DNA of 64,000 bases from Candidatus Thiopontia autotrophica (lineage in GTDB: Bacteria > Pseudomonadota > Gammaproteobacteria > GCF-002020875): NCBI GenBank assembly GCA_014384675.1, contig JACNFK010000014.1, forward strand, positions 1,213 through 65,212, given 5' to 3'. The notes under the pieces are model-generated. The model was not told the origin of the DNA. It worked only from the letters and a program-made list of their open reading frames with translations, and searched no databases. Shown here piece by piece: positions 24,383-53,970 of the stretch; the first letter of the stretch is position 1, and every line of letters begins with the position of its first letter. A program made the translations under genes and the position numbers.

Positions 24383-24425
24383 AATTCAGCTCTCTCTAAA
24401 TAATCTATATGCGGAAGGACAATTG

Positions 24426-27095: not shown

Positions 27096-27418
27096 CGACT
27101 CCTTATCTCCAGTTCAACACGATCCAGATAATCGTCTAGGGATTCACCCCCGTCTCTGGGGACCAGAAAAATCAATTTTGCAGCAATCAGATAAGGTCTT
27201 CGCGCCCCATCTCCAGCTGGACGTTCATCCTGTAGATTGGCCTTCAGATAACGTAGTGCCTCTTCAGGATTTTCACAGTAGCGTGGGAGTGATACCTCAT
27301 CGGCATACCACTCAATAGCTGAAGAGACAGATAGCATCAGCACTACAACCACAACAACAAAAGGAAAAATCTTTCCAATTGGGAAGGCATCCGTATACAT
27401 GTTTTCCTGATTACTCAT
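27086..27418 (-). CDS. Small membrane-anchored protein of unknown function
   Basis: Single TM helix (FPFVVVVVVLMLSV). ATGA overlap with the HemY-like stop, and its own stop overlaps the kinase start, so it is translationally coupled in the operon. Confidence 0.4.
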   Translation of the reverse strand: MSNQENMYTDAFPIGKIFPFVVVVVVLMLSVSSAIEWYADEVSLPRYCENPEEALRYLKANLQDERPAGDGARRPYLIAAKLIFLVPRDGGESLDDYLDRVELEIRSRCG

Positions 27419-28884: not shown

Positions 28885-30923
28885 TGTTTGGCCCCCTCTT
28901 TTTTGGAGGTTCGTGGTCTCTTTAGCTCTGCCTTCATCTTGTCGAGCATCTCACGATCCAGAATACCCAGGCCCTCACCATTCTCACCTTGATGGCTCTC
29001 AACGTGGGTACGAATTTCTCCAAAACGTTTCTCGGCCTGGGGGTTGTCTTTCAGGCGTGGCACCCGTTTTTTGGCAATCTCCCAAGCATCAAAATTCAGC
29101 TCATCCATGCCAAAGCCACGAAGTCTGCGTACCGCCTTCATCATTGCCCGATTACGAAAACGGGTAAGGTCATCAGGAGTGATGATGGACAGCCCTTCCC
29201 GACGCGCATTGAATTCAGCCGCTTTCTTGATTCCGGCACGAACAAATTCTGGTGCACCCTCAACCCTTTTCAGGGCAACAAGATCCCACTCAACTCCGGC
29301 AATCTGGGTATCAATAATAATCTGGATATCGCCAGCAGTTACAGTTATCGAGTTGCGCTGCTTTGCCGCCATCTCTGCAGCTGTCTCCAGTGTCGGCTTA
29401 ACGAACATCACAACCTGTGGCTCCCTGTTAGAGAGGAAATCATCAAGCAGATTATCGGCCTCATCCTCCCAGTTGAGCCTGCGACCAGGCTCATCCTCAG
29501 CCTCCAGTCGATCCAGTAGTTTGGTATTGACCTCCAGTCGCCCCTCGGTTTGGGCTACATCTTCCGCCACCGCACGTACCCCTTCACGCAGGAAGGATGG
29601 GGTCTCATCGAGCCGTTGCTGTGCCTCGGCAGTCCAGACAAGGTGAATTTCCCCGTTATTATTGTCATCTTTATGCCCTGGACGCTTCGGCATGTTGGCG
29701 CCGAATCTTTTGCTGGAGAGCTCGGTCAGCACCTCTGAGGTAACCTCGGAGAGTCCCTGTTCCAGTACATGTTGCTCGGCACGCTTCTTGACCATCTTGC
29801 GAAGAAATCCTGGAACCCGGCCGAGCCGTTTTTCAGCCTCCGCACTCCAGGCTACATCCTCTTGCTCTGTAGAGTTGAGAGGCTGGATTATCTTCCCATT
29901 CTGTGGCTGGTAGGAGCACCATGGATCGGTATCCATCAGATCAGCTCCCAGCGCCTTGGGACGGGCACGACAACCGCCACAGAGTATCTGGTATTCGCAC
30001 TCTCCACACTTTCCCTTGAGGGCTGGATTTCTTAGCTGTTCAAAGGTCTCTGACTCATCCCAGATCGAGAGGAAGCTCTGCTGACGGATATTGCCCTCCT
30101 CATCAGGGATATATGGACAGGCAGTAACACCACCCTCCGGGGTGATGCGACAATAGTGGGTTCCAGCAATACAGCCACCACCCTCGTACCCTTCGGCCCG
30201 CGTGACGGGGCTGTTGGGATCGTTCTGATAGGCGATTCGTTTGTAGTGGGGGGCACAGCGGGCGCGGATCATTAGGTCGGGGTGCTTCTGTTGTGCCGCA
30301 ATGATCTGGTTAAGGGCCGCTTCATAGCGTTGTGGGGTGATGTCGGACATCTTCTCGCCACGCCCGGTGCAGACGAGGAAAAAGATGTTGAGCAGGTGGG
30401 CACCAACGGATTTGGTGAAGTCGACCATCCCCTCCAGCTCTTCGGCATTGCCTTCAGTGATGGAGAAGTGAACCTGAAAAGGGAGTTCGTGTTTGCGGCA
30501 GGCGTCCATTCCAGCCAGAGTCTTCTCCCAGCTCCCAGGGCAGCCGCGGAACTGATCATGAAATCCCGGATCAAGAGAGTCAACGCTGATGCCTGCACCC
30601 ATTGCGCCAGCCGCCTTGAGTGATTTAACCCGCTTCTCATTTAGCAGAACGCCATTGGTGCCGATGACGATGGAGAGGCCTAGTTGAGATCCATGGGCAA
30701 CCAACGCCTCCAGATCTTTTCGTAGCAGTGGCTCTCCTCCAGTCAGAACCACCATGGTATCGGTACTGCGGGCGGCAATCTGATCCAGTAGCTGGATCAC
30801 CTCTTCAGTGCTCAACTCACCATCGCCCCCTTGTTGCAGTGTCTCTGCATCAAGATAGCAGTGGCTGCAGTTGAGATTGCAGCGACGCGTCAGGTTGATG
30901 GCAAGAAGGAAGAGATCGTTCAT
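28881..30923 (-). CDS. Radical SAM/SPASM-domain enzyme with C-terminal PCP_red (protochlorophyllide-reductase B C-terminal-like) repeats
   Basis: CNLNCSHC is a CxxxCxxC radical SAM motif. GKCGECEYQILCGGCRARP is a SPASM motif. At least three repeats of the W-x-x-EAE-x-RL-x-x-VP-x-F-x-R type follow. The start is moved to the ATG at 30923 because the upstream codons lie inside a 25 bp inverted repeat. Confidence 0.8.
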   Translation of the reverse strand: MNDLFLLAINLTRRCNLNCSHCYLDAETLQQGGDGELSTEEVIQLLDQIAARSTDTMVVLTGGEPLLRKDLEALVAHGSQLGLSIVIGTNGVLLNEKRVKSLKAAGAMGAGISVDSLDPGFHDQFRGCPGSWEKTLAGMDACRKHELPFQVHFSITEGNAEELEGMVDFTKSVGAHLLNIFFLVCTGRGEKMSDITPQRYEAALNQIIAAQQKHPDLMIRARCAPHYKRIAYQNDPNSPVTRAEGYEGGGCIAGTHYCRITPEGGVTACPYIPDEEGNIRQQSFLSIWDESETFEQLRNPALKGKCGECEYQILCGGCRARPKALGADLMDTDPWCSYQPQNGKIIQPLNSTEQEDVAWSAEAEKRLGRVPGFLRKMVKKRAEQHVLEQGLSEVTSEVLTELSSKRFGANMPKRPGHKDDNNNGEIHLVWTAEAQQRLDETPSFLREGVRAVAEDVAQTEGRLEVNTKLLDRLEAEDEPGRRLNWEDEADNLLDDFLSNREPQVVMFVKPTLETAAEMAAKQRNSITVTAGDIQIIIDTQIAGVEWDLVALKRVEGAPEFVRAGIKKAAEFNARREGLSIITPDDLTRFRNRAMMKAVRRLRGFGMDELNFDAWEIAKKRVPRLKDNPQAEKRFGEIRTHVESHQGENGEGLGILDREMLDKMKAELKRPRTSKKEGAKQ

Positions 30924-30936
30924 TATGGAAAAGCAA

Positions 30937-31151
30937 CAGCGCCTCGCGCAAAGACGCAAAGAGGCAAAGGTTCTTTCATCGTCTTTTCTGCAGGATGTGC
31001 GTGATTGATTGTGTGGGTGATTTTTTTAGCTCTATAGATGTACTGCATCACTGAGTAGATTGTAGGTAGTAATTCGTTGCCAATGGGCATTCTGAATTGA
31101 ATACCATTGAACGCTTTTCTTAGCGGCTTTGCGTCTTTGCGCGAGGCGCTG
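30937..31151. repeat. 215 bp element bounded by perfect 25 bp terminal inverted repeats (CAGCGCCTCGCGCAAAGACGCAAAG)
   Basis: Left arm 30937-30961, right arm 31127-31151 as the exact reverse complement. It fills the Usp / radical SAM intergenic gap. Confidence 0.8.
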
Positions 31152-31158
31152 TGGCAGT

Positions 31159-33318
31159 TCATTTATACTGATCCGGATTGGATTCGGAGTGGAATCCGCT
31201 GCCCATCTCCCAGGCGTCACTGGCCTTGTCGACGGCGGCATGAGTCACCTGCTCGAGCCCCAACTCCCGTGCGCATCGCTCTACCTCCAGAACGACCATG
31301 CCCTGGACAAAGTCTGGAATCTTTTTGATCCGTGCGCGGGCTGCAGGGTCCCACACCATGGTGGACTGCTTCTCTTTCGATCCTGCCGCCCACTCGCTAT
31401 ATTTCTCCTCAACCAGCGCCTCGGTAATCTCTTCGGTGCGATGTTTTTTTGCAAACTGCTCGACTCGCTGTTTAGTCAGGTCGCGCATAAACCCTTCAGG
31501 AATACGTTCCATGCGGGCCTCGGCCTCAGGGCTCCAGTGAAGGGAGGTGCGTTGTGCGAGATTGGCAAAGGGGCAGAGGCTCGCTTTTTTCTCTGCTGGC
31601 TGTGGAGGGGTAGAGGATTGTTCTTGCATGGCCTCGGTCATTGCCTCGCGCGCTTGTTCCAATCCCGCTTCGACGACTTCCAGTGTGATCTCTTGCAACT
31701 GGTTGTCGCGGGCATATGATTCAATGCGATCCCTGCTGGAGTCGCGCATGAACCCCTCGGGAACACGGGATAGGCGCGCGAGTGCAGCAGCACCCCATGT
31801 CAGTGTGGATGAGGTAGCAGTAGCCTCTTCTTGGCCGATGAATGGCCGGATATGCTCAATCTTGACCCGATTGGAGCGCTCTCCACGTGCCTTTTTCTCT
31901 GCACGCATACTGAGGTTGCCGCGCAGTGCCAGATCCTCAATCGTCATGAGTAACTGAGAGGCATCGCTGTCCCAGCGCATGATCTTGTCGGTGACGACTC
32001 CAGCTTCTTCCGGTTTACGTTTGAGTTCGCCTGCCTCGTAGGCATCTACAATCTCTCCCATCGCCTGCTCTGCATGGTTCGGCATCAACTGGGCGGTGGC
32101 CTCTTCAACAATTCGTTCGGTAATGACGGTATGGCCACGCTCCTGTGCATAACGGAGGATCGCCATTCTGGCCATATTGCGAACAAAGGAGGGGACCTTA
32201 TCCATTCTGGATTCAGCCTCATTTGTCCATGAGGTGGTGGTCTCCGCCACCACATCAATCTCTGGGCGGTAGGTGCGCTGGCTCAGTAGTACCGCACACT
32301 CGACATTGCGCAGTAATATCTCACTGTTGCCACCAATATCGAGCTCATCATCGGCATGAATCCCCAGCTTTCCGATAACCAGCAGGGAGGGGCGGGCGTT
32401 GGCGACATAGCGTTCAACTGCATCGTGCGCCTTGCCATCAAGCAGGGTGGTCTCAATCTCAACCCCATAATCTCGGGCAATAGATTCTGCCACATCCAGA
32501 TGCCCCTGATAAATCTTGGCCAGACCGGAGTCGATGATCTCCTCGTGGAGCTTCTCCTGCTCCTTGAACTTGAATACCTTGCCTGCCTCCTCGGAAAGAA
32601 CTCCTGCAATCCGGTTAAATGCTACGTAGTGGTAGTAGGGGTCAAAGGCGGAGATCACCTTAACCTTGCAGCTCCACTCTTTTGCCAGGGAGAAAGCCGT
32701 CAGTAATCCACCATAGGCTCTGTCAGAACCGTCAATGGCAACCACAATGGGGCCACGCTCAAGATTTATCTCTGGCTCCTTGATTACCAGAACATCAATC
32801 TCCGAGCGCCGAGCAACGCGGTCGGTTACTGTTCCCAGGCGACTGCCACGAATTGCGCCCAGCCCCAGTGCCCCCATAACCAGCAGGTCATACCTCCCAC
32901 TATTGGTTTCGCGGGTCAGTTCACGATAGTTTTTCCCCTCAAGTGGACGGCGATCAAATGCAATCTCGTTTTCCGCAGCAAGCTCCTCGGCCTGGTCCAG
33001 ATAAGAGTCGGTAATAATGGAGAGGCCCTTGGTGATCAAGTCATCGTGGACATCTCGTTGACGCTCCAGCTCCAGCTCCTCACGAAACTGCTCCGGCAGA
33101 CCTCCCTCCATCTGGCGGAAACGGATGTCATGTAGTTTGGCAGCATAGACATGCGTGCCCGTAATTTTTGCCCCCCAGTGCGCAGCCATTTGAAAGGCCT
33201 CGGTAGTGCCGCGGTTGGAGTGGTCCGAAGAGTCAACAGCAAGCAGTATCCCCTGGTAGGTTGGAAGAGGATCTGGCTTGGTTGGTTGCTCCATTTTTAC
33301 TACATTTTCATTTTGCAT
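31159..33318 (-). CDS. Tandem universal-stress-protein (UspA) domains fused to five PCP_red repeats
   Basis: Two Usp domains (ILLAVDSSDHS...LLVMGALG and IVVAIDGSDRA...LLVIGKLG). Five repeats follow, for example WTNEAESRMDKVPSFVRNMA and WSPEAEARMERIPEGFMRD. Confidence 0.75.
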   Translation of the reverse strand: MQNENVVKMEQPTKPDPLPTYQGILLAVDSSDHSNRGTTEAFQMAAHWGAKITGTHVYAAKLHDIRFRQMEGGLPEQFREELELERQRDVHDDLITKGLSIITDSYLDQAEELAAENEIAFDRRPLEGKNYRELTRETNSGRYDLLVMGALGLGAIRGSRLGTVTDRVARRSEIDVLVIKEPEINLERGPIVVAIDGSDRAYGGLLTAFSLAKEWSCKVKVISAFDPYYHYVAFNRIAGVLSEEAGKVFKFKEQEKLHEEIIDSGLAKIYQGHLDVAESIARDYGVEIETTLLDGKAHDAVERYVANARPSLLVIGKLGIHADDELDIGGNSEILLRNVECAVLLSQRTYRPEIDVVAETTTSWTNEAESRMDKVPSFVRNMARMAILRYAQERGHTVITERIVEEATAQLMPNHAEQAMGEIVDAYEAGELKRKPEEAGVVTDKIMRWDSDASQLLMTIEDLALRGNLSMRAEKKARGERSNRVKIEHIRPFIGQEEATATSSTLTWGAAALARLSRVPEGFMRDSSRDRIESYARDNQLQEITLEVVEAGLEQAREAMTEAMQEQSSTPPQPAEKKASLCPFANLAQRTSLHWSPEAEARMERIPEGFMRDLTKQRVEQFAKKHRTEEITEALVEEKYSEWAAGSKEKQSTMVWDPAARARIKKIPDFVQGMVVLEVERCARELGLEQVTHAAVDKASDAWEMGSGFHSESNPDQYK

Positions 33319-33445: not shown

Positions 33446-33580
33446 GTTACAGATTTGTTGGTTGTTCCTAGATCACCATGTACCAAATGATAATGGTGCA
33501 GACAACAACCATGTTGATAGCTCCACCTGTAAGTACCATACGGTCAAACAGGGTGAGTTTCTCTGGAAGCAGACGTCTCA

Positions 33581-34348
33581 TTACTTCATCTTGATATCAA
33601 CAGTTACAGTATCGCCACCCTTAACAGTAGCCTTGCCTTTTCCTGGCTTGAGGAAGCCATTGAAGGCCCTGACCTTGTATTTGCCAGGAGGTACGTTGTC
33701 GATAGTGTACTTTCCGTTGCCATCTACCACAGCGTAGTATGGGCTCTTGGCCACAAAGACGAAACCGTGCATAAAGTCATGAGCATCACACTCAACCTTC
33801 ATGGCATAACCTTTTTTCAGCTTTACAGTCTTGGTCACCTTGCTGCCCTGGTCAGGCTGGCTCACATTTGCAACGGTCTTTTTAGGCCCTTTGACGGTAC
33901 CGGTCATCAGCTCATAGGTGTGAAGATTGTGAAGAACAGGATCAGAGTTGATAGCAGTCATCTTGCCGCCATTTTGCATGATAGAGAGGAATGGGGTGAA
34001 TTCGCATCCTTTCTGATCTACATTGATCTCAGCAGGAGTGTCTCCCCACGCCTTGCCTGATTTTACCTTAGTCAGATAGACAACTGCATTGAGCAGTGCC
34101 TTGCCGTTGGTCTGAACGTAATCGATGATGCGCTGGTCATTGCCACATACGGCATTGTCCTTCTTTATGTCATAAACCTTGTGGGCAGACTTTGGTGCAG
34201 CCTTCTTCAGGGTTACGGTTCCGGTGATGGTGCCGCCATTAGCGACATCAACCACCTTGTAGCCAGCCTCTGAGCTGAGTGGGGTGAATGCAGCAGCAGT
34301 GATTGCTACAGCAGAGAGTGTCTTAAGTAGACGTTTTGATGTTTTCAT
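33581..34348 (-). CDS. Secreted cupredoxin-like (amicyanin/pseudoazurin-type) protein with a C-terminal carboxypeptidase-regulatory-like beta-sandwich
   Basis: Signal peptide. A VLHNLH ... VECDAHDFMHGF arrangement (H ... C-x2-H-x2-M) matches the amicyanin type-1 copper ligand spacing. The C-terminus (GKYTIDNVPPGKYKV) is CarboxypepD_reg-like. Confidence 0.5.
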   Translation of the reverse strand: MKTSKRLLKTLSAVAITAAAFTPLSSEAGYKVVDVANGGTITGTVTLKKAAPKSAHKVYDIKKDNAVCGNDQRIIDYVQTNGKALLNAVVYLTKVKSGKAWGDTPAEINVDQKGCEFTPFLSIMQNGGKMTAINSDPVLHNLHTYELMTGTVKGPKKTVANVSQPDQGSKVTKTVKLKKGYAMKVECDAHDFMHGFVFVAKSPYYAVVDGNGKYTIDNVPPGKYKVRAFNGFLKPGKGKATVKGGDTVTVDIKMK

Positions 34349-34404
34349 GTCAATTTGACTCCTGGGTTAAATAAAACAAAATAGTTAATGAAAAAATAGT
34401 TACT

Positions 34405-36846
34405 TTATGCGGCCTGAAGATGGTCGGGTTCCTGGCTGGTTTGGTATATCTCTTCCAGCATCTCGATCACAAATCTGCGCTCCGCACTGCTCTGCATGGA
34501 CTCCAGCAAGGGTAGCAGATGGTTTGCACCGATTACAGGGTCGAGAATTCTAAGTGCTCTTCCCATATGTCTTGCCTGTTCACCGGCACCAGCAAAACCT
34601 GCGTCCAGTATCTTTAGAATAAATTCTTTGCTCTCTTGGGGGCTTTCTGTGCCACTACTTAACAGCGAGGTTATTGCATCAGCCGCATATTTTCTGACTG
34701 AGGGTTGGTCATCTTCCAGTTTCTCACTGATTTTCTGCAAGATTTCACTGTTGGCAACCTCGTTGGTCACCATGTGAGCCTCTTCTACAGAGTCAAGTTT
34801 GCTTGAGGCAATGGTGGCAAGAGCACGCACCGACTCCATTCGTACAACGGTATCATCATCATCCAAACATTCAATCAGGGTTGGTATGGCAGCCCGGTTT
34901 TCCATTGCTCCAAGGGCGCGGATGGCAGCCATGCGAATGTCGGGGTCACCAAAATGGACCTGAGATATAAGTGTTCCCTGTGTATCAAGCAGTTTTGGGT
35001 TGGCCGGATTGCCAGCAGCAATCTCCGCCAGGGCCTCGGCAGCCAATCTACGAATCTCATGGTCATCATCACTAAGCGCAAGATTTAGCTCATTTATTGC
35101 CAGATTACTTTGTTGACGCCCCAGAATGGTTGCCGCCATGCGACGCACATCAGTATGTATGTCCTTGTTCTTGAACCTGCGTTCACGGCGAACTGTCGCC
35201 TCCTCGTTATCCTCCAGGATGCCAAGATACTCCTTGGTCTCTTCATCAAACTCCTCTTCAGCTGGGGCCTCCTCCTCATCCAGCAAAAGGGCTGCCTCAA
35301 CATTATCCATTGCAATGGCATCGAGTGTTGAGACACTATCGCGGCTTTCACCCTCCAGGGTTGGTGATTCAGGAAAGTCTGGCAACGCAGGTTCTTCGCT
35401 CACGGTATCTTCTTCCGTACCATTTTCAGTGTTGTTCTCCAGATCAACACTCTTGTTGAACTGAACCTCCTGAGACTGGGCAACCACCTCCTTCTGCTCC
35501 TCCTCCTCTTCCTCACGAGTCAGGTCAATCTCGCCATGGAGTGCCGAGAGGATGATCTCAATGGGGCGCGGATGATTTTCACTGTCATCACTGTCAGATG
35601 CTGCTACATATTTATCCTCACAATCCATAAGAGAGATCAGGGCGGCCAGACGAACAGGCTGTTCAGGATCGCTTAGTGCATTGGTGAGTGCATCAACTCC
35701 TGAATCTGTTATCTGGTCCATTAGTGACAGGCTAAGTGCGGCCTGTCTACGAATAGCGATTTCGTTACTGTCATCAGCAAGCAGAGTGACCAGTTTCTCT
35801 TCTGCATCACTGGTGTTCAGTTTTGAGAAGAGCTTGGTCGCTGCAGTAGAAGATTCAATGTCAGCATCACCGATTAATTCAATTATGCGATCAATGACTT
35901 CACCACCAAGCTTCTCTCTCAATACCTCTCTGCGCAGATTTGCCAGGGTATTGAGTGAGGTTGCACGTACCAGGGCGCTCTCATCGTCAAGAAGACCAGT
36001 AAACAGGTCTACAGTCTCCTGGGTTGGGTTTTTCATCTCTCCCAATGTGGTCGCAGCATGTGCTGCTGCACTGCGCACTTCGTCACTTGGGTTCTTTAGT
36101 AACAGCATAATGGCCGGCAGGTATCTCTTCGCATCCTGCTCCTCCAGGGCCTTAATTGCATGTACGCGGACATCAGTGTGTTTGGAGCTTAGTGCTCTAC
36201 CAAGAATCTTGACTGCCTCTGCAGAATTTGACCGTCCCAGAGCGGTAGCCGCACGGCGCTGTTTACGAACATCCCCTTCATTCAGGATCTTTTCCAGGGT
36301 TTTGATGCTCTCTTCACTACCAATAGCGGCCATGGATCGCAGAATCTCTGGCTCTATATCTTCACCTTCAATGCTGTTGAGCAGTCGTTCCAGTGCAGGT
36401 ACAGCGTCATTGGCCTTTAGCTTGCCGAGTGATTTAACCGCAGCGAGCTGAACATCCCACCAGAGATCCCATCCATCCTCGATGTAACCTATCTCATCAT
36501 CACGATTCTCCATAACGCGCATCAGCTCAGGTACTGCGGATTGGTCGCCGAGTTCCCCCAGGGCCTTGGCAACGGCAGTTTTTACCTCGCCATCAGGATC
36601 TTTCTCAAGAGACTCAATTAGTGAAGCAGCGACCCCCTCGCCACCAAGTTTTCCGAGTGTGGATGCTGCATCAACACATACATCAATATCCTTGTCTCTA
36701 AGGAATGGCAGAACTTTTTTGGATACACTATTTGTAGCTGATGGGGCACAAAGTTTCCCCAGAGCCTGAGTTACATAACAGCGATCAGCTTCGTCACCGG
36801 TCTCTAGCAGGTGGGTTAATGCATCAATTGTTTTATTCAGGCTCAT
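34405..36846 (-). CDS. Large HEAT-repeat (PBS-lyase-type) protein with acidic low-complexity segments
   Basis: Repeated VRxxAAxALGxLGD HEAT/E-Z motifs throughout its 813 aa, with EEEEEQKE and DEEEAPAEEEFDEE tracts. Confidence 0.7.
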   Translation of the reverse strand: MSLNKTIDALTHLLETGDEADRCYVTQALGKLCAPSATNSVSKKVLPFLRDKDIDVCVDAASTLGKLGGEGVAASLIESLEKDPDGEVKTAVAKALGELGDQSAVPELMRVMENRDDEIGYIEDGWDLWWDVQLAAVKSLGKLKANDAVPALERLLNSIEGEDIEPEILRSMAAIGSEESIKTLEKILNEGDVRKQRRAATALGRSNSAEAVKILGRALSSKHTDVRVHAIKALEEQDAKRYLPAIMLLLKNPSDEVRSAAAHAATTLGEMKNPTQETVDLFTGLLDDESALVRATSLNTLANLRREVLREKLGGEVIDRIIELIGDADIESSTAATKLFSKLNTSDAEEKLVTLLADDSNEIAIRRQAALSLSLMDQITDSGVDALTNALSDPEQPVRLAALISLMDCEDKYVAASDSDDSENHPRPIEIILSALHGEIDLTREEEEEEQKEVVAQSQEVQFNKSVDLENNTENGTEEDTVSEEPALPDFPESPTLEGESRDSVSTLDAIAMDNVEAALLLDEEEAPAEEEFDEETKEYLGILEDNEEATVRRERRFKNKDIHTDVRRMAATILGRQQSNLAINELNLALSDDDHEIRRLAAEALAEIAAGNPANPKLLDTQGTLISQVHFGDPDIRMAAIRALGAMENRAAIPTLIECLDDDDTVVRMESVRALATIASSKLDSVEEAHMVTNEVANSEILQKISEKLEDDQPSVRKYAADAITSLLSSGTESPQESKEFILKILDAGFAGAGEQARHMGRALRILDPVIGANHLLPLLESMQSSAERRFVIEMLEEIYQTSQEPDHLQAA

Positions 36847-36895: not shown

Positions 36896-36911
36896 TGCAT
36901 AAGGTGTGCCA
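36896..36911 (-). promoter_or_regulatory. Sigma-54 (-24/-12) promoter for the HEAT-cupredoxin transcript
   Basis: The minus strand reads TGGCACACCTTATGCA. GG and GC are spaced exactly as in TGGCAC-N5-TTGC, about 50 nt upstream of the HEAT start. Confidence 0.6.
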
Positions 36912-36975: not shown

Positions 36976-37087
36976 TTGAACGATATGTTCAATTGGAAGA
37001 ATCGTTCCATAGATTATTGAACAAAACGTTCAGTTTGTGAACATTATGGTCTATTTTTTATAAACTTAAAACTGAACAAAACGTTCA
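36976..37087. promoter_or_regulatory. Three TGAAC-N5-GTTCA palindromes (candidate UAS/enhancer sites) plus one TGGAA-N6-TTCCA palindrome
   Basis: TTGAACGATATGTTCAA (36976-36992), TGAACAAAACGTTCA (37018-37032) and TGAACAAAACGTTCA (37073-37087), plus TGGAAGAATCGTTCCA (36994-37009). They lie in a divergent AT-rich intergenic region between two sigma-54 promoters. Confidence 0.6.
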
Positions 37088-37140: not shown

Positions 37141-37156
37141 TGGCATATAAAATGCA
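37141..37156 (+). promoter_or_regulatory. Sigma-54 (-24/-12) promoter for the CydA-like/cytochrome operon
   Basis: TGGCATATAAAATGCA with GG-N10-GC spacing. It is 62-158 bp downstream of the three palindromes. Confidence 0.6.
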
Positions 37157-37195
37157 AGTAGTTGGCGGATATTGGCATTAAACCAAGGGTTGGCT

Positions 37196-37348
37196 ATGAC
37201 AGAAGAGAACGAGAACAGAGAAAGTGTTAAGCAGGATAGTGAAGAGGTGACATGGGGGCCGAAGCTGTTTCTGGCGGTAACAGGCGGTGTTCTTCTCTTC
37301 TTCTGGTGGCTTCTGATCTATTCAGGTGGTGTGGTATTACACCACTGA
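37196..37348 (+). CDS. 50 aa small membrane protein (below the ORF-track size cutoff)
   Basis: MTEENENRESVKQDSEEVTWGPKLFLAVTGGVLLFFWWLLIYSGGVVLHH. It has an RBS-like AAGGG about 8 nt upstream and is the first ORF after the sigma-54 promoter. Confidence 0.3.
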   Translation: MTEENENRESVKQDSEEVTWGPKLFLAVTGGVLLFFWWLLIYSGGVVLHH

Positions 37349-37393
37349 CTTTTCAAACACCAAAGCGCTCATAATCATTTAGCAGGTAAACTG

Positions 37394-37519
37394 ATGAAAA
37401 CTGGAATTGCATTTGTAGTTGCCCTTTTTGTGGCATTTTTTCTGTTCTATGGAATGGATCATCTCATCATGGGAATGCAGGGGCTTCCTCTGAATCTCGA
37501 CATGTCGCCGGCGCAGTAG
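37394..37519 (+). CDS. 41 aa single-TM peptide, possibly a CydX-like accessory subunit
   Basis: MKTGIAFVVALFVAFFLFYGMDHLIMGMQGLPLNLDMSPAQ. It ends 16 nt before the CydA-like start. Confidence 0.3.
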   Translation: MKTGIAFVVALFVAFFLFYGMDHLIMGMQGLPLNLDMSPAQ

Positions 37520-37535
37520 AAGGAATAAAAATCCA

Positions 37536-39356
37536 ATGAAACAAAGACTATTTTTCTGGGTATTGCTCTTCTCTGTCATTGTGGCAGGGATGTTTGGGGG
37601 TGATTTCGGTTCACCTTCACTACTCAATGAGGCTCTCGCCTCTGATGCTGTAGTAGAGGAGGGGGCGCAACTGGCTTCAGCTCCTCAGCCAAATCGTGGC
37701 GATTATCCAAATATAGGGGTCAGTAGTCGGGCGGTTGTGTGGGTTATCGCACAGATGCACCTCTTCTTTGGGGCGCTGGTGTTGGCGGTACCGATGTTTG
37801 TGGTCGGTATTGAGTTTATGGGTTTCAAAACCGGTGATGAGCGCTATGATGATATGGCCCATGAGTTCATGAAGATCAGTATCACCGCCTACTCCATTAC
37901 TGCGCTGTTTGGTGGAACCCTGGCGATTGCCCTCTTCCTGCTCTATCCAACCTTTATGAGCTACATGATGGAGGTGTTCGGGGCACAGATGTTGGTCTAT
38001 GCGGTGCTCTTTTTCCTTGAGAGCTTCTTCCTCTATATCTACTACTATGGCTGGAATGTACTCCGTTATGGTAACAAAAAGTGGATCCACCTCTCTTTGG
38101 GGATGATGCTCAATGGGGTAGGGCTGACTCTGATGTTTATGGCTAACTCCTGGTCCACCTTCATGATGGCCCCATCCGGGGTGAGTGATGTGGGTGCAGT
38201 GGTGGGGAATATCTGGGAGGTTATGAAGGGGCCGCTGTGGAACCCAATCAATCTGCATCGATTCATCGCCAATGTCGCCTTTGGTGGAGCCGTAGTAGGG
38301 GCCTATGCCGGGTTTAAGTTTCTTGCAGCAAAAACGCAGGAGCAGAAAGCACACTATGACTGGATGGGATATACCTCTAACTTTATTGCGATCCTCGCCT
38401 TTTTACCCCTCCCCTTTGCGGGCTATTGGTTGATGGCAGAGGTCTATGCATACTCTCAGCAGATGGGAATTACCGCCATGGGTGGTATTCTTGCGTGGCT
38501 CTTTATTGTACAGGCGGTATTGATTGGAACCATCTTGTTGGCAGCCAACTACTATCTATGGTCAGGGATGTCTCGTACCGAGGGCTCCAAACGCTATCAG
38601 GGGTTTATTAAGTGGATTGCTGGAACGCTTGTGGTCTGCTTTCTGATCTGGATGACCCCTCACACCTTGCTGCTAACGGCAAGCGAGATCTCCGCCTTGG
38701 GTGGAAGTCACCACCATATTCTTGGGCCACTGGGGATCATGCCGGCGAAAAATATTGCGGTCAATCTGATGTTGATTATGACCTTTCTCTCCTTCCAGCT
38801 CTACCGTCGATCCGATAAAGTGGCAACCGTCTCTTGGGCGCCAGTTGGAAATGCACTGATGACAGCCATCTATATTGTGGCGATTGTGAATATTATCTTT
38901 GCAGGTGTCTATTATGGATATTTCACTAATACGGTATACAAGGTCGGATCCAGTGTGACCCAGGTGGTATCTACCTTGATGGTGATTATCATTGGGGTAA
39001 TGCTGGATGGCATCATGTATAAAAATGCCAAAGTGAAATTTCCTGCAGTTTGGGGAAAAGTCTCCAACCGTTCACAGTATGCACTCTTCGCCCTACCGGT
39101 TGCCTTTACCTGGTTGATGGGATTGATGGGATATGTACGCTCTTCGGTCAAGACCCATTGGCATGTCTATACGGTGATGAAAGATAACTCACCAGATAAC
39201 TATATTCCTGCAATTGGTTATGCGGGAAATATGGTTACTCTGGTTACGGTACTGTTTATTGTCTTCCTGTTATTCGTGTTCTGGATTGCCAACCTTAGTG
39301 GGCAGAAACAGATTGCACCCCAAGCTGCCAATGGTGAAAAAGGAGCAGAGGGATGA
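37536..39356 (+). CDS. Cytochrome bd-type quinol oxidase subunit I-like membrane protein (an orphan CydA homolog with no CydB partner)
   Basis: 606 aa and polytopic. MHLFFGALVLAVPMF corresponds to the CydA helix-1 His region. LESFFLYIYYYGWNVL matches the CydA FLES...FFFGWDRL block. The C-terminus is extended. Confidence 0.7.
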   Translation: MKQRLFFWVLLFSVIVAGMFGGDFGSPSLLNEALASDAVVEEGAQLASAPQPNRGDYPNIGVSSRAVVWVIAQMHLFFGALVLAVPMFVVGIEFMGFKTGDERYDDMAHEFMKISITAYSITALFGGTLAIALFLLYPTFMSYMMEVFGAQMLVYAVLFFLESFFLYIYYYGWNVLRYGNKKWIHLSLGMMLNGVGLTLMFMANSWSTFMMAPSGVSDVGAVVGNIWEVMKGPLWNPINLHRFIANVAFGGAVVGAYAGFKFLAAKTQEQKAHYDWMGYTSNFIAILAFLPLPFAGYWLMAEVYAYSQQMGITAMGGILAWLFIVQAVLIGTILLAANYYLWSGMSRTEGSKRYQGFIKWIAGTLVVCFLIWMTPHTLLLTASEISALGGSHHHILGPLGIMPAKNIAVNLMLIMTFLSFQLYRRSDKVATVSWAPVGNALMTAIYIVAIVNIIFAGVYYGYFTNTVYKVGSSVTQVVSTLMVIIIGVMLDGIMYKNAKVKFPAVWGKVSNRSQYALFALPVAFTWLMGLMGYVRSSVKTHWHVYTVMKDNSPDNYIPAIGYAGNMVTLVTVLFIVFLLFVFWIANLSGQKQIAPQAANGEKGAEG

Positions 39357-40177
39357 GTCAGAGTAACCAGGTACTTCCAAAGATATTGGCATTTAGTGTG
39401 GGGCTGGTGTTGCTCTTTACCTTTGTTGCCAACATTCTTCCACAGGTTGAGGGCGAGGCGCCGGTGGACAAGAAGGTGGATCTCGGTGCGCTCACCATGG
39501 ATGGCTTTGTCTCGATGGGAGAAGAGTTATTCAAGGGGAAGGGGACCTGTACCCTCTGTCATAATAATCTTGGGCGCGCGCCTGATATTCTGGCATTGAA
39601 TATGGTGGAGACTGCCGCTGAGCGGTTAAAAGATGAGCGCTATCAAGGAAAATCTACTGATTCGGCCAGTTACTTTATGGAGTCAATGGTAGACCCCTCG
39701 ATCTATGTGGTGGCGAGCTTTGGAAAGAAGGGCAGTAATGATACGGAATCACCTATGCCCGCTGTGAATAAGGCCCCCATTAACCTTTCAGCGATAGAGA
39801 TGGATGCGGTCATCGCCTTTATGCAGGCCAAGGATGGTGGTGAGGTTACGGTGGAGCTGCCTACAGAGGCTCCAGTGGTCGATGAATCTGCTGTCACAGG
39901 CGGCGGAGCACCTGCCCCGGCAGCAACTGGTGAAGAGGCGGTAGGAAAATATGGTTGTGCGGCCTGTCATGTTATTAACGGTTCAGGAGGCGATCTTGGT
40001 CCGGACCTGACTGGGCTAGGCAGCAGACAAAATGTTCTGGTTATTCAACAGAGTATTGTTGATCCAAATGCAGTTATTGCAGATGGATTTGCCCAAGGAC
40101 TTATGCCGGCTGATTTTGGTGACAAGATGACAGTCAAGGAGTTGTCGATGATTGTTGAATTGCTGCAGGGGCAGTAG
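39353..40177 (+). CDS. Membrane-anchored diheme cytochrome c
   Basis: Two CxxCH motifs (CTLCH and CAACH) and an N-terminal TM anchor. Its start overlaps the CydA-like stop (ATGA). Confidence 0.8.
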   Translation: MSQSNQVLPKILAFSVGLVLLFTFVANILPQVEGEAPVDKKVDLGALTMDGFVSMGEELFKGKGTCTLCHNNLGRAPDILALNMVETAAERLKDERYQGKSTDSASYFMESMVDPSIYVVASFGKKGSNDTESPMPAVNKAPINLSAIEMDAVIAFMQAKDGGEVTVELPTEAPVVDESAVTGGGAPAPAATGEEAVGKYGCAACHVINGSGGDLGPDLTGLGSRQNVLVIQQSIVDPNAVIADGFAQGLMPADFGDKMTVKELSMIVELLQGQ

Positions 40178-40242
40178 TCGAGATTTCAATGGCAGCGGAT
40201 GCTGCGATTTTTTTAACTTTTTATCAATGTAAGGAATTAATA

Positions 40243-40560
40243 ATGAACAAGGTAATGATTAGTGTTGTGGCAACTGTAGTAATGGCTTCAAGCCAGTCTG
40301 TAATGGCCGATGCCGCCGGTGATTTTGCCGCCGGCTGTTTTGCCTGTCACAGCCCTGCAACTGCAGCTGCAGTAGGCGCTCCTGGCATGGGTGATAAGGC
40401 TGCCTGGGCGCCACGCATCGCCAAGGGTATGGATGCACTCTATGCAACCGCAATCAATGGCTCTCCAACAAACCCACTGATGATGCCGCGTGGTGGAACC
40501 GCTTTGAGTGATGATGCGCTAAAGGCTGTGGTGGACTACATGGTTGAGCAGTCAAAATAA
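40243..40560 (+). CDS. Monoheme cytochrome c (c5/c553-like)
   Basis: Signal peptide, then a CFACH heme motif in a roughly 85-residue mature domain. The start is taken at MNKVMIS, which has a better RBS than the ORF-track start at 40189. Confidence 0.75.
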   Translation: MNKVMISVVATVVMASSQSVMADAAGDFAAGCFACHSPATAAAVGAPGMGDKAAWAPRIAKGMDALYATAINGSPTNPLMMPRGGTALSDDALKAVVDYMVEQSK

Positions 40561-40615
40561 GTTGGCTGATATTTTTTTACCAAAATAGCTATTAGAGATT
40601 TGGAGTAGACCCCCC

Positions 40616-43183: not shown

Positions 43184-43241
43184 TGAACGATTCGTTTAAG
43201 TAGTTCACCATAGTTACAGATAAAGTGAATAATGTGTTCAC
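43184..43241. promoter_or_regulatory. Two TGAA-N7-TTCA palindromes (candidate UAS sites) upstream of the CCP operon promoter
   Basis: TGAACGATTCGTTTA (43184-43198, one mismatch) and GTGAATAATGTGTTCAC (43225-43241). Both have the same half-site and spacing as the 36976-37087 sites. Confidence 0.5.
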
Positions 43242-43328: not shown

Positions 43329-43344
43329 TGGCACAGAAAATGCT
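43329..43344 (+). promoter_or_regulatory. Sigma-54 (-24/-12) promoter for the CCP-CCP-Rieske-Mo operon
   Basis: TGGCACAGAAAATGCT, exact TGGCAC with a correctly spaced GC, about 120 nt upstream of the first CCP start. Confidence 0.6.
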
Positions 43345-43466
43345 TAATACTTAGTGGTTATAAATAGATTGGGCGGGGGTTATTGCCCAAAGAACCAGGT
43401 TTTTTATAGGTTCGTCAGCAGTTTTGGCGAATATTTTTTTGTTAAACCATACAACGGAGAAACAAT

Positions 43467-44603: not shown

Positions 44604-44622
44604 GCGATCAGGAGAGTTAATT

Positions 44623-46478: not shown

Positions 46479-46490
46479 GGAGAAAAAGAT

Positions 46491-50608: not shown

Positions 50609-50681
50609 CCAACCTTTTTTATCAGGAAATTTCCCTCGCTCCTCTACTGATTCCCCGGGGGATCCGATATACTTTCGCCCC

Positions 50682-52873: not shown

Positions 52874-52969
52874 GGAGCCGCTGAAAAAGCTTAATGGCTG
52901 GGGTGATCTGAATCAAATTTTGCTGTTATAGCATTCGATTCTGCAGGGTGAATCAACTACAATCCCCCG

Positions 52970-53968: not shown

Positions 53969-53970
53969 AG

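What the first reader, a model, noticed from the sequence alone, without database searches (positions are those of the whole stretch)
33581..36846. Cupredoxin-like domain fused to a carboxypeptidase-regulatory-like fold, co-transcribed with a giant acidic HEAT-repeat protein
The ligand pattern H...C-x2-H-x2-M (VLHNLH ... CDAHDFMHG) matches the amicyanin type-1 copper site. The downstream GKYTIDNVPPGKYKV region resembles a CarboxypepD_reg beta-sandwich. The pair follows, separated by only 56 bp, an 813 aa PBS-lyase-type HEAT protein. HEAT proteins of this type act as scaffolds or lyases for tetrapyrroles in cyanobacteria. Both are under the island's leftward sigma-54 promoter. The function is unknown; a periplasmic electron carrier plus a scaffold for the tetrapyrrole module is one possibility.
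Basis: inference. Interest (0 to 1): 0.5.

Follow-up and report, generated by a model that had tools for sequence, protein, structure and literature searches.

The report
Hidden blue-copper protein beside iodate reductase
The 255-residue protein is very probably a secreted blue-copper electron carrier of an unrecognised design, and it sits with an acidic HEAT-repeat protein in an enlarged version of the gene island that lets marine bacteria respire iodate.

Summary
Observation confirmed. ORF 33581-34348(-) encodes a Sec-exported 255-aa protein. An AlphaFold model (pLDDT 88) matches type-1 copper cupredoxins (amicyanin, plastocyanin) and a carboxypeptidase-D transthyretin-like sandwich. His140, Cys187, His190 and Met193 align with amicyanin's four copper ligands and are kept in 128-130 of 131 distant relatives. 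Refinement: the cupredoxin is inserted inside a split CarboxypepD_reg domain, not fused in front of it. Databases name the family only as 'carboxypeptidase regulatory-like'.

It is enlarged by a cytochrome bd-like/cytochrome c membrane module and a haem-type biosynthesis set. Three sigma-54 promoters with shared upstream palindromes tie these units into one regulon. Among 29 well-flanked related loci, 28 pair the copper protein with the bd-like module.

The HEAT protein is real and acidic (pI 4.45). Orthologues also sit in compact Vibrio and Moritella islands, which lack both the copper protein and the tetrapyrrole genes. The 'tetrapyrrole scaffold' reading is therefore not supported.

Best explanation: a dedicated periplasmic copper electron carrier for this respiratory module. 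The fold and copper site are well supported; the redox partners are inferred. New variant of a known kind.

The parts
33581..34348 (-). Gene for the 255-aa exported copper protein ('CupCR'): a cupredoxin nested in a CarboxypepD_reg sandwich. The mature protein is about 24.5 kDa with pI 9.6.
   Evidence: ORF. Model. Fold matches. Family conservation. pI.
34265..34348 (-). Sec-type signal peptide, aa 1-28 (MKTSKRLLKTLSAVAITAAAFTPLSSEA | GYK).
   Evidence: Read from the sequence. This stretch has pLDDT below 50. A hydrophobic N-terminus followed by small residues (AxA-type in most orthologues; SEA in the window protein) is conserved in the orthologues. No signal-peptide predictor was available, so this is by inspection.
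34169..34249 (-). N-terminal strands of the split CarboxypepD_reg sandwich, aa 34-60 (GGTITGTVTL...).
33746..34168 (-). Inserted cupredoxin domain, aa 61-201. Putative type-1 copper ligands and their codons: His140 (33929-33931), Cys187 (33788-33790), His190 (33779-33781), Met193 (33770-33772). Cys68 and Cys115 probably form a disulfide.
   Evidence: The hhalign alignment to amicyanin 1aac places H140/C187/H190/M193 on H53/C92/H95/M98. Conservation is 128-130 of 131. PF00127 matches only weakly (E 0.019, 15.8 bits, below cutoff).
33584..33745 (-). C-terminal two-thirds of the CarboxypepD_reg sandwich, aa 202-255.
   Evidence: Pfam PF13620, E 4.4e-8, profile positions 28-82.
33468..33581 (-). 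Unannotated 37-aa single-helix membrane micro-ORF. Its ATG overlaps the copper-protein stop codon (TAATG). It is conserved immediately downstream of the copper-protein gene.
   Evidence: ORF. A tblastn counterpart lies within 400 nt downstream of the copper gene in 53 other loci (54 rows counting the window itself). The whole 1.29-Mb set gives only 55 HSPs at E<=1. Motif: (R/K)LxxFDxxVLxGxxVNxxVV...YWLL.
34405..36846 (-). 813-aa cytoplasmic acidic HEAT-repeat protein, the first gene of the leftward operon. Two HEAT blocks are joined by an acidic linker (about aa 410-550).
   Evidence: Pfam HEAT_2 E 1.3e-66. pI 4.45 and no transmembrane segment. Invariant motifs across orthologues are GDEADRCY, DxDIDVCVDAA and DDWDxWWDxQL.
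36896..36911 (-). Sigma-54 type -24/-12 promoter of the HEAT-copper protein operon.
   Evidence: Its conservation in related loci is shown.
36977..37087 (.). Three perfect TGAAC-N5-GTTCA palindromes, probably upstream activator sites shared by the two divergent sigma-54 promoters.
   Evidence: 11 matches in the window against 2.35 expected. Two one-mismatch copies lie at 43184-43240, before idrP1.
37141..37156 (+). Sigma-54 type promoter of the rightward bd-like operon.
   Evidence: only three matches to TGGCAY-N5-WTGCW in 64 kb, each in front of one transcription unit.
37172..43051 (+). Membrane redox module. It contains two small transmembrane ORFs (37172-37348, 37394-37519), a cytochrome bd subunit-I-like protein (37536-39356; at least 11 hydrophobic segments by a hydropathy scan), an anchored di-haem cytochrome c (39353-40177), a mono-haem cytochrome c (40189-40560), and an anchored tri-haem cytochrome c fused to an EB_dh haem-b domain (40616-43051).
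   Evidence: Pfam and NCBIfam. CxxCH counts and hydropathy. Small ORFs. Found next to the copper gene in 28 of 29 well-flanked loci.
43329..49184 (+). Iodate-reductase-type operon. It has a sigma-54 promoter (43329-43344), two di-haem peroxidases idrP1/idrP2-like (43467-44603 and about 44600-45882), a Tat-exported Rieske subunit idrB-like (45882-46478), and a molybdopterin subunit idrA-like (46491-49184).
   Evidence: The large subunit is 70-73% identical to Vibrio, Moritella and Photobacterium proteins. Other species of those three genera are listed as island carriers in PMC8692401 Table S3. Similarity to solved arsenite oxidases is only about 269 bits. The gene order is the same as in Denitromonas IR-12.
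22994..33318 (-). Rest of the leftward operon: USP plus 4x PCP_red (31159-33318), AhbD/NirJ2-like radical SAM plus 3x PCP_red (28881-30959), HemY-type protoporphyrinogen/coproporphyrinogen oxidase (27415-28884), a 122-aa membrane protein (27086-27454), a sensor kinase (24426-27095), and a sigma-54 response regulator (22994-24382).
   Evidence: The order is conserved in Gammaproteobacteria. The kinase is 35% identical and the regulator 53-54% identical to those of the Moritella and Vibrio islands.

Best explanation
The 255-aa protein is exported to the periplasm, where it binds one copper ion at a type-1 ('blue') site formed by His140, Cys187, His190 and Met193. It acts as a one-electron carrier. 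Its cupredoxin domain is inserted into a CarboxypepD_reg (transthyretin-like) sandwich, which probably serves as a docking or spacer module.

The protein belongs to an add-on package that enlarges the iodate-reductase island idrP1P2BA. The package comprises:
- a membrane complex of a cytochrome bd-like protein, anchored cytochromes c and an EB_dh haem-b domain;
- the copper protein and a 37-aa membrane peptide;
- cytoplasmic haem-type enzymes (HemY-like, and AhbD-like radical SAM with PCP_red domains).

The likely electron path is quinol, then the bd-like/cytochrome c complex, then the copper protein (and/or the small cytochrome c), then the Rieske/3Fe-4S/Mo enzyme IdrBA and the two peroxidases.

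All three transcription units are driven by sigma-54 promoters with shared upstream sites, under the island's kinase/regulator pair.

The HEAT protein is a cytoplasmic accessory of the island's regulatory operon. It is co-transcribed with the copper protein but is not its specific partner.

Shown here: fold, ligand conservation, nested topology, synteny, promoters. Inferred: export, copper binding, direction of electron flow, identity of the redox partners.
For: Fold and copper site:
- AF2 model pLDDT 87.9.
- All four amicyanin ligands align with residues kept in 128-130 of 131 distant relatives. Asn141, next to the first His, is also kept in 118 of 131.

Export:
- A conserved signal peptide is seen by inspection.

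Nested domain:
- The chimera test restores the full PF13620 profile.

Context:
- In 29 non-redundant loci with at least 9 kb on both sides, all 29 carry a respiratory module. The bd-like/cytochrome c module is present in 28, and idr genes lie within 10 kb in 15.
- In Betaproteobacteria and Bradyrhizobium the copper gene is the first gene of a Cup-idrP1-idrP2-idrB-idrA unit behind a sigma-54 promoter.
- In a distant relative, idrA, two peroxidases, a copper-protein gene, bd-like, two cytochromes c, the multihaem protein and a second copper-protein gene are colinear.
- An SCO1 copper chaperone gene flanks the module in the tubeworm symbiont and in Sedimenticola.

Precedent:
- NCBIfam and NCBI records name the homologous AioAB enzyme 'arsenate reductase (azurin)', that is, it is named for a cupredoxin partner.
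- Reyes-Umana et al. noted that the canonical island lacks a dedicated quinone oxidoreductase (PMC8692401).
- NXR clusters of Nitrospina, Nitrospira and Kuenenia combine a bd-like protein, cytochromes c, an NxrC-type subunit and cupredoxin-like proteins. A copper- or haem-based carrier role was proposed for them (PMC3578206).

One regulon:
- Exactly three TGGCAY-N5-WTGCW sites occur in the window, one before each unit, plus shared palindromes.
Against: - No metal data exist, and I could not read the model's coordinates. The ligand geometry is therefore inferred from alignment, not measured.
- Sequence models do not place the domain in the cupredoxin family. PF00127 scores 15.8 bits against a cutoff of 21.2. 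NCBIfam has no hit. The PDB profile search finds only the sandwich part.
- The copper protein is not needed for iodate respiration in general. It is not among the 26 genes shared by Denitromonas IR-12 and Pseudomonas SCT. It is absent from the Moritella and Vibrio islands.
- In 14 of 29 well-flanked loci no idr gene lies within 10 kb. The firmest partner is therefore the bd-like module, whose own function is unknown.
- A distant family member in a Nitrospiria MAG sits next to iron-uptake genes instead.
- The gene shares an operon with cytoplasmic proteins, which says nothing about physical partners.
Confidence: 0.6

Rival explanations
1. The copper protein is not a free shuttle. It is a fixed subunit of the bd-like/cytochrome c membrane complex, held there by its CarboxypepD_reg sandwich and/or the 37-aa membrane peptide. 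It serves as the complex's built-in copper exit or entry site, much as a CuA-type or cupredoxin domain does in an oxidase.
For: - The micro-ORF is translationally coupled to the copper gene (overlapping TAATG) and is conserved downstream of it in 53 other loci, including loci without HEAT.
- The bd-like module accompanies the copper gene in 28 of 29 loci.
Against: - The protein has its own cleavable-looking signal peptide and no membrane segment.
- In Betaproteobacteria the copper gene heads the idr operon, and the bd-like gene was detected within 10 kb in only one of those loci (L084), several kb from the copper gene.
- No complex prediction could be run.
Confidence: 0.2
2. The protein is a copper chaperone or assembly factor. 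It would deliver copper to another centre of the module, for example a putative copper site in the bd-like protein, working together with SCO1.
For: - SCO1/SenC genes lie next to the module in three loci.
- A distant member sits beside iron-uptake genes.
Against: - The ligand set His/Cys/His/Met, with amicyanin's C-x2-H-x2-M spacing and the His-Asn pair, is the signature of electron-transfer type-1 sites, not of the chaperones named (established knowledge).
- This set is almost invariant across the family.
- SCO1 is absent from the window and from most loci.
Confidence: 0.1
3. One reading: the HEAT protein is a scaffold or lyase for a tetrapyrrole made by the neighbouring PCP_red, radical-SAM and HemY genes, and it works together with the copper protein.
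For: - HEAT_PBS repeats are present (E 2.3e-25).
- HEAT lies directly upstream of the copper gene in 56 of 85 loci, next to genes with protochlorophyllide-reductase-type domains, an AhbD/NirJ2-like radical SAM gene and a HemY-type oxidase.
Against: - Orthologous HEAT proteins with the same invariant motifs occur in Moritella and Vibrio islands that lack all those genes and the copper protein.
- HEAT is absent where the copper gene heads the idr operon.
- Scores against CpcE, CpcF, CpeY and NblB are 3 to 13 times below their cutoffs.
- HEAT has no signal peptide, whereas the copper protein is exported.
Confidence: 0.07

Closest known systems
Amicyanin and plastocyanin (type-1 blue copper cupredoxins)
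   Same: - The same ligand pattern, His-Asn...Cys-x2-His-x2-Met. It aligns residue for residue with amicyanin His53/Cys92/His95/Met98.
- Periplasmic location.
- The gene lies next to the enzyme it presumably serves.
   Different: - Only 15-23% identity, and below the Pfam cutoff.
- The domain is inserted inside a second beta-sandwich, giving a 24.5-kDa two-domain protein.
- It has an extra conserved Cys pair.
- It accompanies an iodate-reductase/bd-like module, not methylamine dehydrogenase or photosystems.
Azurin as the redox partner of arsenite oxidase AioAB ('arsenate reductase (azurin)')
   Same: A cupredoxin paired with a periplasmic Rieske/3Fe-4S/Mo enzyme of the same family. The window enzyme passes the AioA and AioB NCBIfam cutoffs.
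   Different: - The enzyme here belongs to the IdrA clade (70-73% identical to Vibrio and Moritella proteins), and electrons would flow towards the enzyme.
- The copper protein is unrelated in sequence to azurin.
- No partner test was possible.
Iodate-reduction island idrABP1P2 (Yamazaki 2020; Reyes-Umana 2021, PMC8692401)
   Same: The order kinase, sigma-54 regulator, two peroxidases, Rieske subunit, Mo subunit, as in Denitromonas IR-12. Sedimenticola and Thiomargarita, which carry the copper gene, are listed there as island carriers.
   Different: - The described island has four structural genes and 'lacked a quinone oxidoreductase'.
- Here it is joined by a bd-like/cytochrome c module, the copper protein, a micro-peptide, haem-type enzymes and a HEAT protein.
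- None of these additions is mentioned in the papers I could search.
NXR-cluster accessory genes of Nitrospina, Nitrospira and Kuenenia (PMC3578206)
   Same: The combination of a many-helix cytochrome bd-like protein, mono- and di-haem cytochromes c, an EB_dh (NxrC-type) haem-b domain and cupredoxin-like proteins next to a periplasmic Mo enzyme. A proposed alternative-complex-III-like role.
   Different: - The Mo enzyme is different (type II DMSO reductase NXR against the Aio/Idr type).
- Whether the NXR cupredoxin-like proteins share the nested architecture was not tested.
- That module's function is itself unproven.
CpcE/CpcF/NblB phycobilin lyase-type HEAT proteins
   Same: PBS-lyase HEAT-like repeats.
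   Different: - Scores are far below the equivalog cutoffs.
- The protein is three to four times longer, with an acidic linker.
- It has its own invariant motifs (GDEADRCY, DDWDxWWDxQL).
- There are no phycobiliprotein genes nearby.
- It heads a kinase/regulator operon.

Membership tests
Cupredoxin, type-1 copper (amicyanin/plastocyanin type) | Greek-key beta-sandwich cupredoxin fold | tested here: met
   [not shown]
Cupredoxin, type-1 copper (amicyanin/plastocyanin type) | Ligand set His ... Cys-xn-His-xn-Met at the equivalent positions | tested here: met
   H140/C187/H190/M193 align with amicyanin H53/C92/H95/M98. They are kept in 128-130 of 131 distant relatives.
Cupredoxin, type-1 copper (amicyanin/plastocyanin type) | Match to the family's sequence model (PF00127 or PF13473) above the gathering score | tested here: not met
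   The whole protein has no cupredoxin hit. The excised domain matches PF00127 at 15.8 bits against a cutoff of 21.2, E 0.019. I therefore file it as a structural and functional cupredoxin, not as a Pfam-defined member.
Cupredoxin, type-1 copper (amicyanin/plastocyanin type) | Binds one copper ion, with intense absorption near 600 nm and a narrow-hyperfine EPR signal | not testable with these tools
   This needs purified protein.
Cupredoxin, type-1 copper (amicyanin/plastocyanin type) | The four ligand side chains converge within bonding distance in the structure | not testable with these tools
   The model's coordinates are not readable here. Only summary scores are returned.
CarboxypepD_reg (PF13620, transthyretin-like sandwich) | Pfam match above the gathering score, and the matching fold | tested here: met
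   [not shown]
Phycobilin lyase CpcE/F-type HEAT proteins | PBS-lyase HEAT-like repeats | tested here: met
   PF03130 E 2.3e-25; PF13646 E 1.3e-66.
Phycobilin lyase CpcE/F-type HEAT proteins | Score above the curated equivalog cutoff (CpcE, CpcF, CpeY, NblB) | tested here: not met
   CpcE 101.8 vs 330; NblB 79.2 vs 300; CpeY 46.9 vs 600; CpcF 33.6 vs 220.
Phycobilin lyase CpcE/F-type HEAT proteins | Genomic association with phycobiliprotein or bilin genes | tested here: not met
   There are none in the window. Orthologues head kinase/regulator operons of idr islands.
Iodate-reduction island (idrABP1P2) | Two di-haem peroxidase genes adjacent to AioB-like Rieske and AioA-like molybdopterin genes | tested here: met
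   43467-49184. This is the criterion used in PMC8692401 to separate idrA from aioA neighbourhoods.
Iodate-reduction island (idrABP1P2) | Large subunit inside the IdrA clade rather than the AioA clade | tested here: inconclusive
   70-73% identity to Vibrio, Moritella and Photobacterium proteins. Other species of those genera are listed as island carriers. Similarity to solved AioA is only about 269 bits. No tree with the reference IdrA of Pseudomonas SCT or Denitromonas could be built.
Iodate-reduction island (idrABP1P2) | Iodate-dependent growth or iodate reductase activity | not testable with these tools
   The organism is an uncultured marine gammaproteobacterium. The copper protein is 100% identical to a Gammaproteobacteria MAG protein.
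NXR-type bd-like/cupredoxin electron-transfer module | A many-helix cytochrome bd subunit-I-like protein, cytochromes c, an EB_dh haem-b domain and a cupredoxin-like protein, all encoded together | tested here: met
   Described in PMC3578206.
NXR-type bd-like/cupredoxin electron-transfer module | Association with nitrite oxidoreductase NxrABC | tested here: not met
   No Nxr/Nar-type enzyme was found among the neighbouring genes scanned. The Mo enzyme present is of the Aio/Idr type. The module works like that one but is not a member.

The most novel reading that the evidence does not exclude
The following parts form a previously undescribed, self-contained respiratory unit: the nested copper protein, its 37-aa membrane peptide, the bd-like/cytochrome c/EB_dh complex, and the dedicated HemY plus AhbD-like/PCP_red haem-tailoring enzymes. 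The unit would be an alternative-complex-III-like quinol dehydrogenase with a built-in blue-copper wire and possibly a special haem. It would plug into periplasmic Mo enzymes such as iodate reductase. It would give sulfur-oxidising symbionts, giant sulfur bacteria and oxygen-minimum-zone bacteria an energy-conserving route from quinol to iodate.
Probability: 0.3. Interest if true: 0.75.

Novelty: new variant of a known kind. Interest (0 to 1): 0.55.

Why it matters
1. A large protein family (522 clusters at 50% identity with E<=1e-30) is annotated only as 'carboxypeptidase regulatory-like'. Its members carry an almost invariant blue-copper site, so a whole class of periplasmic electron carriers is currently invisible to annotation.

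2. The published model of iodate respiration lacks a dedicated link to the quinone pool (PMC8692401). The enlarged island seen here offers concrete candidates for that link: the bd-like complex and the copper protein. It also shows that all units share one sigma-54 regulon.

3. The carriers include Sedimenticola, Thiodiazotropha, tubeworm endosymbionts, Thiomargarita, Beggiatoaceae, marine Alphaproteobacteria and an oxygen-deficient-zone Thiotrichales MAG. This suggests iodate may be a more widely used electron acceptor among sulfur oxidisers and symbionts than assumed.

4. The same kind of bd-like plus cupredoxin module is an unsolved part of nitrite-oxidoreductase clusters. A culturable carrier (Aestuariirhabdus, Sedimenticola) could make that question testable.

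Tried and rejected
- NCBIfam gave no hit for the 255-aa protein.
- Sequence and profile searches of the PDB found only the sandwich part and chance capsid matches. They found no cupredoxin.
- The AlphaFold-database fold library was not available. I therefore could not ask whether the NXR-cluster cupredoxin-like proteins share the nested architecture.
- Literature searches for 'cytochrome bd-like' plus Sedimenticola, for PCP_red/PF08369, for idrA with radical SAM or HEAT, and for iodate with cupredoxin, azurin or bd-like found nothing relevant.
- The iodate papers do not mention these accessory genes.
- I considered that HEAT and the copper protein, with opposite charges (pI 4.45 and 9.6), form a complex. 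This is unlikely for the mature proteins, because HEAT has no export signal and occurs without the copper protein.
- I considered a catalytic role on reactive iodine or peroxide. I rejected it because a His/Cys/His/Met site is coordinatively saturated (established knowledge) and two peroxidases are already encoded.
- I ran no further search on the HEAT protein. A solenoid model without readable coordinates would not discriminate between the hypotheses.

Full report
**1. The observation**

ORF 33581..34348(-) encodes 255 aa. ORF 34405..36846(-) encodes 813 aa. They are 56 bp apart, and AGGAG lies 12 nt before the ATG of the smaller gene.

The N-terminus, MKTSKRLLKTLSAVAITAAAFTPLSSEA, looks like a Sec signal peptide. 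Its hydrophobic core followed by small residues is conserved in orthologues.

Pfam sees only a CarboxypepD_reg match at aa 202-255 (33.8 bits, cutoff 32.3). It reports no cupredoxin family. For the 813-aa protein it reports HEAT_2 (E 1.3e-66) and HEAT_PBS (E 2.3e-25). NCBIfam has nothing for the 255-aa protein. The HEAT protein has pI 4.45, 20% Asp+Glu and a very acidic linker at about aa 410-550. The mature small protein has pI 9.6.

**2. Is it a cupredoxin with a copper site?**

An AlphaFold2 model built on 39 orthologues is confident (pLDDT 87.9, pTM 0.82).

- Foldseek independently ranks amicyanin, plastocyanin, pseudoazurin and the cupredoxin domain of NirK on top (E about 5e-5, probability 1.00, TM 0.63-0.70 on the target).

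I then aligned it to the family profile. His140-Asn141-x-His143 falls on His53-Asn54-x-His56. Cys187, His190 and Met193 fall on Cys92, His95 and Met98. It is established knowledge that His53, Cys92, His95 and Met98 are amicyanin's copper ligands. The pairwise score is weak (E 0.0097), so this alignment is supporting evidence, not proof.

The stronger argument is conservation. A profile search of 1.84 billion cluster representatives finds 522 clusters at E<=1e-30, mostly full-length proteins of 240-290 aa. Among 130 of them plus the query (131 sequences), conservation is as follows:

| Residue | Kept in (of 131) |
|---|---|
| His140 | 128 |
| Asn141 | 118 |
| Cys187 | 130 |
| His190 | 129 |
| Met193 | 130 |
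| Cys68 | 123 |
| Cys115 | 126 |
| His194 | 32 |

Cys68 and Cys115 probably form a disulfide. His194 is clearly not essential. Source databases call these proteins 'carboxypeptidase regulatory-like domain-containing', or 'plastocyanin' in a single case.

**3. Topology**

The Pfam match begins at profile position 28, so the first strands of the sandwich are missing from the C-terminal piece. Joining aa 34-62 (GGTITGTVTL...) to aa 200-255 restores a full-length match (profile positions 1-82) and raises the score from 36.8 to 43.3 bits. The excised middle part (aa 61-202) gives a sub-threshold match to the plastocyanin/azurin family PF00127 (15.8 bits, E 0.019) over nearly the whole profile.

**4. 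Surroundings in the window**

Rightward, starting at 37172, the window encodes:

- two small membrane ORFs;
- a cytochrome bd subunit-I-like protein;
- an anchored di-haem cytochrome c and a mono-haem cytochrome c;
- an anchored tri-haem cytochrome c fused to an EB_dh haem-b domain;
- two di-haem peroxidases;
- a Tat-exported Rieske protein;
- a molybdopterin subunit with the 3Fe-4S 'Rieske_3' domain.

These are documented.

The last four genes have the order and content of the iodate-reductase island. In Denitromonas IR-12 the order is kinase, sigma-54 regulator, two peroxidases, AioB-like, AioA-like (Table S2 of PMC8692401). Adjacency of the two peroxidases is that paper's criterion for separating idrA from aioA neighbourhoods.

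The large subunit is 70-73% identical to proteins of Vibrio, Moritella and Photobacterium. Other species of those three genera are listed as island carriers, together with Sedimenticola thiotaurini and Thiomargarita nelsonii. It is far from solved arsenite oxidases (about 269 bits). I could not build a tree with the reference IdrA sequences, so clade membership is strongly suggested but not proven.

Leftward, after the HEAT and copper genes, come:

- a USP protein with four PCP_red domains;
- an AhbD/NirJ2-like radical SAM enzyme with three PCP_red domains;
- a HemY-type protoporphyrinogen/coproporphyrinogen oxidase (250 bits, cutoff 97.85);
- a 122-aa membrane protein;
- a sensor kinase;
- a sigma-54 regulator.

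These are documented.

**5. One regulon**

The pattern TGGCAY-N5-WTGCW occurs exactly three times in 64 kb (0.61 expected). The sites are at 36896-36911(-) before HEAT, at 37141-37156(+) before the bd-like operon, and at 43329-43344(+) before idrP1.

Three perfect TGAAC-N5-GTTCA palindromes lie between the divergent promoters (36977-37087). Two one-mismatch copies precede the idrP1 promoter.

No terminator-like site lies on the minus strand between HEAT and the copper gene, or after the copper gene.

Across related loci, a -24/-12 element lies within 350 nt upstream of the operon's first gene in 42 of 74 cases, against 0.05 expected per 350 nt. It sits before HEAT in Gammaproteobacteria and before the copper gene where that gene comes first. 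It is absent in Alphaproteobacteria, where HEAT follows idrA in one long unit.

**6. Comparative context**

I collected 85 loci encoding relatives and scored them with the window's proteins. Three arrangements recur.

- Gammaproteobacteria (tubeworm endosymbionts, Thiodiazotropha, Sedimenticola, and an 87%-identical Thiotrichales MAG from an oxygen-deficient inlet) repeat the window's arrangement. SCO1 sometimes follows the multihaem gene.
- Alphaproteobacteria have everything colinear: multihaem protein, two peroxidases, Rieske, Mo subunit, HEAT, copper protein, USP, radical SAM, HemY.
- Betaproteobacteria and a Bradyrhizobium MAG have the copper gene directly in front of idrP1-idrP2-idrB-idrA, without HEAT.

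A distant relative has idrA, two peroxidases, a copper-protein gene, bd-like, two cytochromes c, the multihaem protein and a second copper-protein gene in a row.

Among 29 non-redundant loci with at least 9 kb on both sides:

| Neighbour | Loci (of 29) |
|---|---|
| bd-like/cytochrome c module | 28 |
| USP/PCP_red gene | 27 |
| radical SAM gene | 26 |
| HemY gene | 26 |
| HEAT | 23 |
| idr genes within 10 kb | 15 |

The idr figure is a lower bound, because the flanks stop at 10 kb. One remote member (Nitrospiria) sits by iron-uptake genes instead.

**7. The HEAT protein**

Orthologues of about 750-900 aa follow the same genomes but diverge faster than the copper protein: 29-40% identity against 52-58%. 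Their invariant residues cluster in N-terminal motifs: GDEADRCY, DxDIDVCVDAA, DDWDxWWDxQL and STLDAIAMDNVE.

The decisive result comes from Moritella viscosa and Vibrio sp. VB16. Their compact islands read: regulator, kinase, HEAT, then divergently two peroxidases, Rieske, IdrA and a 100-aa cytochrome c. They have no copper protein, no bd-like gene, no PCP_red genes, no radical SAM gene and no HemY gene.

Those HEAT proteins align over most of their length (E 1e-21) and share the signature motifs. The kinase is 35% identical and the regulator 53-54% identical.

The window's leftward operon is therefore the compact HEAT-kinase-regulator operon with six genes inserted after HEAT. HEAT is an accessory of the island itself (regulation or enzyme maturation; undetermined). 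It is neither a partner specific to the copper protein nor a tetrapyrrole scaffold. It also fails all phycobilin-lyase equivalog cutoffs.

**8. How it most likely works**

The copper protein is a periplasmic one-electron carrier serving the add-on package.

The package supplies what the published island was noted to lack, a dedicated connection to the quinone pool. That connection would be a bd-like haem-b membrane protein with anchored cytochromes c and an EB_dh domain. Electrons would pass from it through the copper protein and/or the mono-haem cytochrome c to the Rieske/3Fe-4S/Mo enzyme and the peroxidases.

Two precedents support this:

- The sister enzyme is named 'arsenate reductase (azurin)' in NCBIfam and NCBI records, that is, for a cupredoxin partner.
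- NXR clusters combine the same kinds of parts, and a copper- or haem-based carrier and an alternative-complex-III-like role were proposed for them (PMC3578206).

The sandwich probably mediates docking. A similar fold is the Kuenenia HDH assembly factor bound to a multihaem complex.

The HemY-like and AhbD-like/PCP_red enzymes plausibly provide or tailor haem for the haem-rich module. This is inference only.

Shown: fold, conserved ligands, nested topology, synteny, regulon. Inferred: export, copper binding, direction of flow, partners.

Evidence against a strict link to iodate: the copper protein is dispensable in the studied iodate reducers, and 14 of 29 well-flanked loci show no idr gene within 10 kb.

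**9. Rivals**

- A fixed subunit of the membrane complex, perhaps held by the 37-aa peptide.
- A copper chaperone working with SCO1.

The second is disfavoured by the electron-transfer ligand signature. The third is disfavoured by the Moritella and Vibrio islands.

**10. Novelty and verdict**

Cupredoxins are classic. The new points are:

- the nested architecture;
- the size of an unannotated family;
- its place in an enlarged iodate-reductase island, which I found described in none of the searchable papers.

I rate it a new variant of a known kind, with interest 0.55.

Noticed in passing
window 33468-33581 (-): An unannotated 37-aa single-helix membrane ORF (MRRLLPEKLTLFDRMVLTGGAINMVVVCTIIIWYMVI). 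Its ATG overlaps the copper-protein stop codon. A counterpart with the motif FDxxVLxGxxVN...YWLL lies just downstream of the copper gene in 53 other loci, including loci without HEAT.
   Followed up: partly
window 37172-37348 (+) and 37394-37519 (+): Two small predicted membrane ORFs (58 or 50 aa, and 41 aa) at the head of the bd-like operon. ORFs of 45-51 aa are called at the same place in the tubeworm-symbiont and Sedimenticola loci. They may be small subunits, as CydX is for cytochrome bd.
   Followed up: no
window 43467-49184 (+): An idrP1-idrP2-idrB-idrA-type iodate reductase operon in an uncultured marine gammaproteobacterium. The large subunit is 70-73% identical to Vibrio and Moritella proteins, and the Rieske subunit has a twin-arginine signal (NRRQFL).
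   Followed up: partly
window 36977-37087 and 43184-43240: TGAAC-N5-GTTCA palindromes (three perfect, two with one mismatch) lie upstream of the sigma-54 promoters. They are likely binding sites of the island's NtrC-type regulator.
   Followed up: partly
window 27415-30959 (-): A HemY-type (proto/copro)porphyrinogen oxidase lies next to an AhbD/NirJ2-like radical SAM enzyme fused to three PCP_red domains. This unusual pairing suggests an oxygen-independent or specialised haem branch dedicated to this island.
   Followed up: no
window 50108-54867 (+): An SCP2 protein, a radical SAM protein, an FAD-binding (FAD_binding_3 family) protein and two U32 peptidase-family proteins in a row. From my own knowledge this resembles the ubiT/ubiU/ubiV genes of oxygen-independent ubiquinone synthesis, directly downstream of the island.
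   Followed up: no
L088 4383-6695 (-), L089 4311-6692 (-): Moritella viscosa and Vibrio sp. VB16 carry a 770-793 aa HEAT protein heading the kinase/regulator operon of their compact iodate-reductase islands. It shares the motifs GDEAxRCY and DWDxWWDxQL with the window protein. This island component is not mentioned in the iodate papers I read.
   Followed up: partly
L087 3453-4160 and 10001-10882: One distant metagenomic contig carries two paralogous copper-protein genes (36-38% identical to the window protein) bracketing the bd-like/cytochrome c genes, in one colinear unit with idrA and the peroxidases.
   Followed up: no
L001 727-1329, L005 40-675: An SCO1/SenC copper-chaperone gene follows the multihaem cytochrome gene in the tubeworm endosymbiont and in Sedimenticola hydrogenitrophicus. 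No such gene is present at that position in the window.
   Followed up: no
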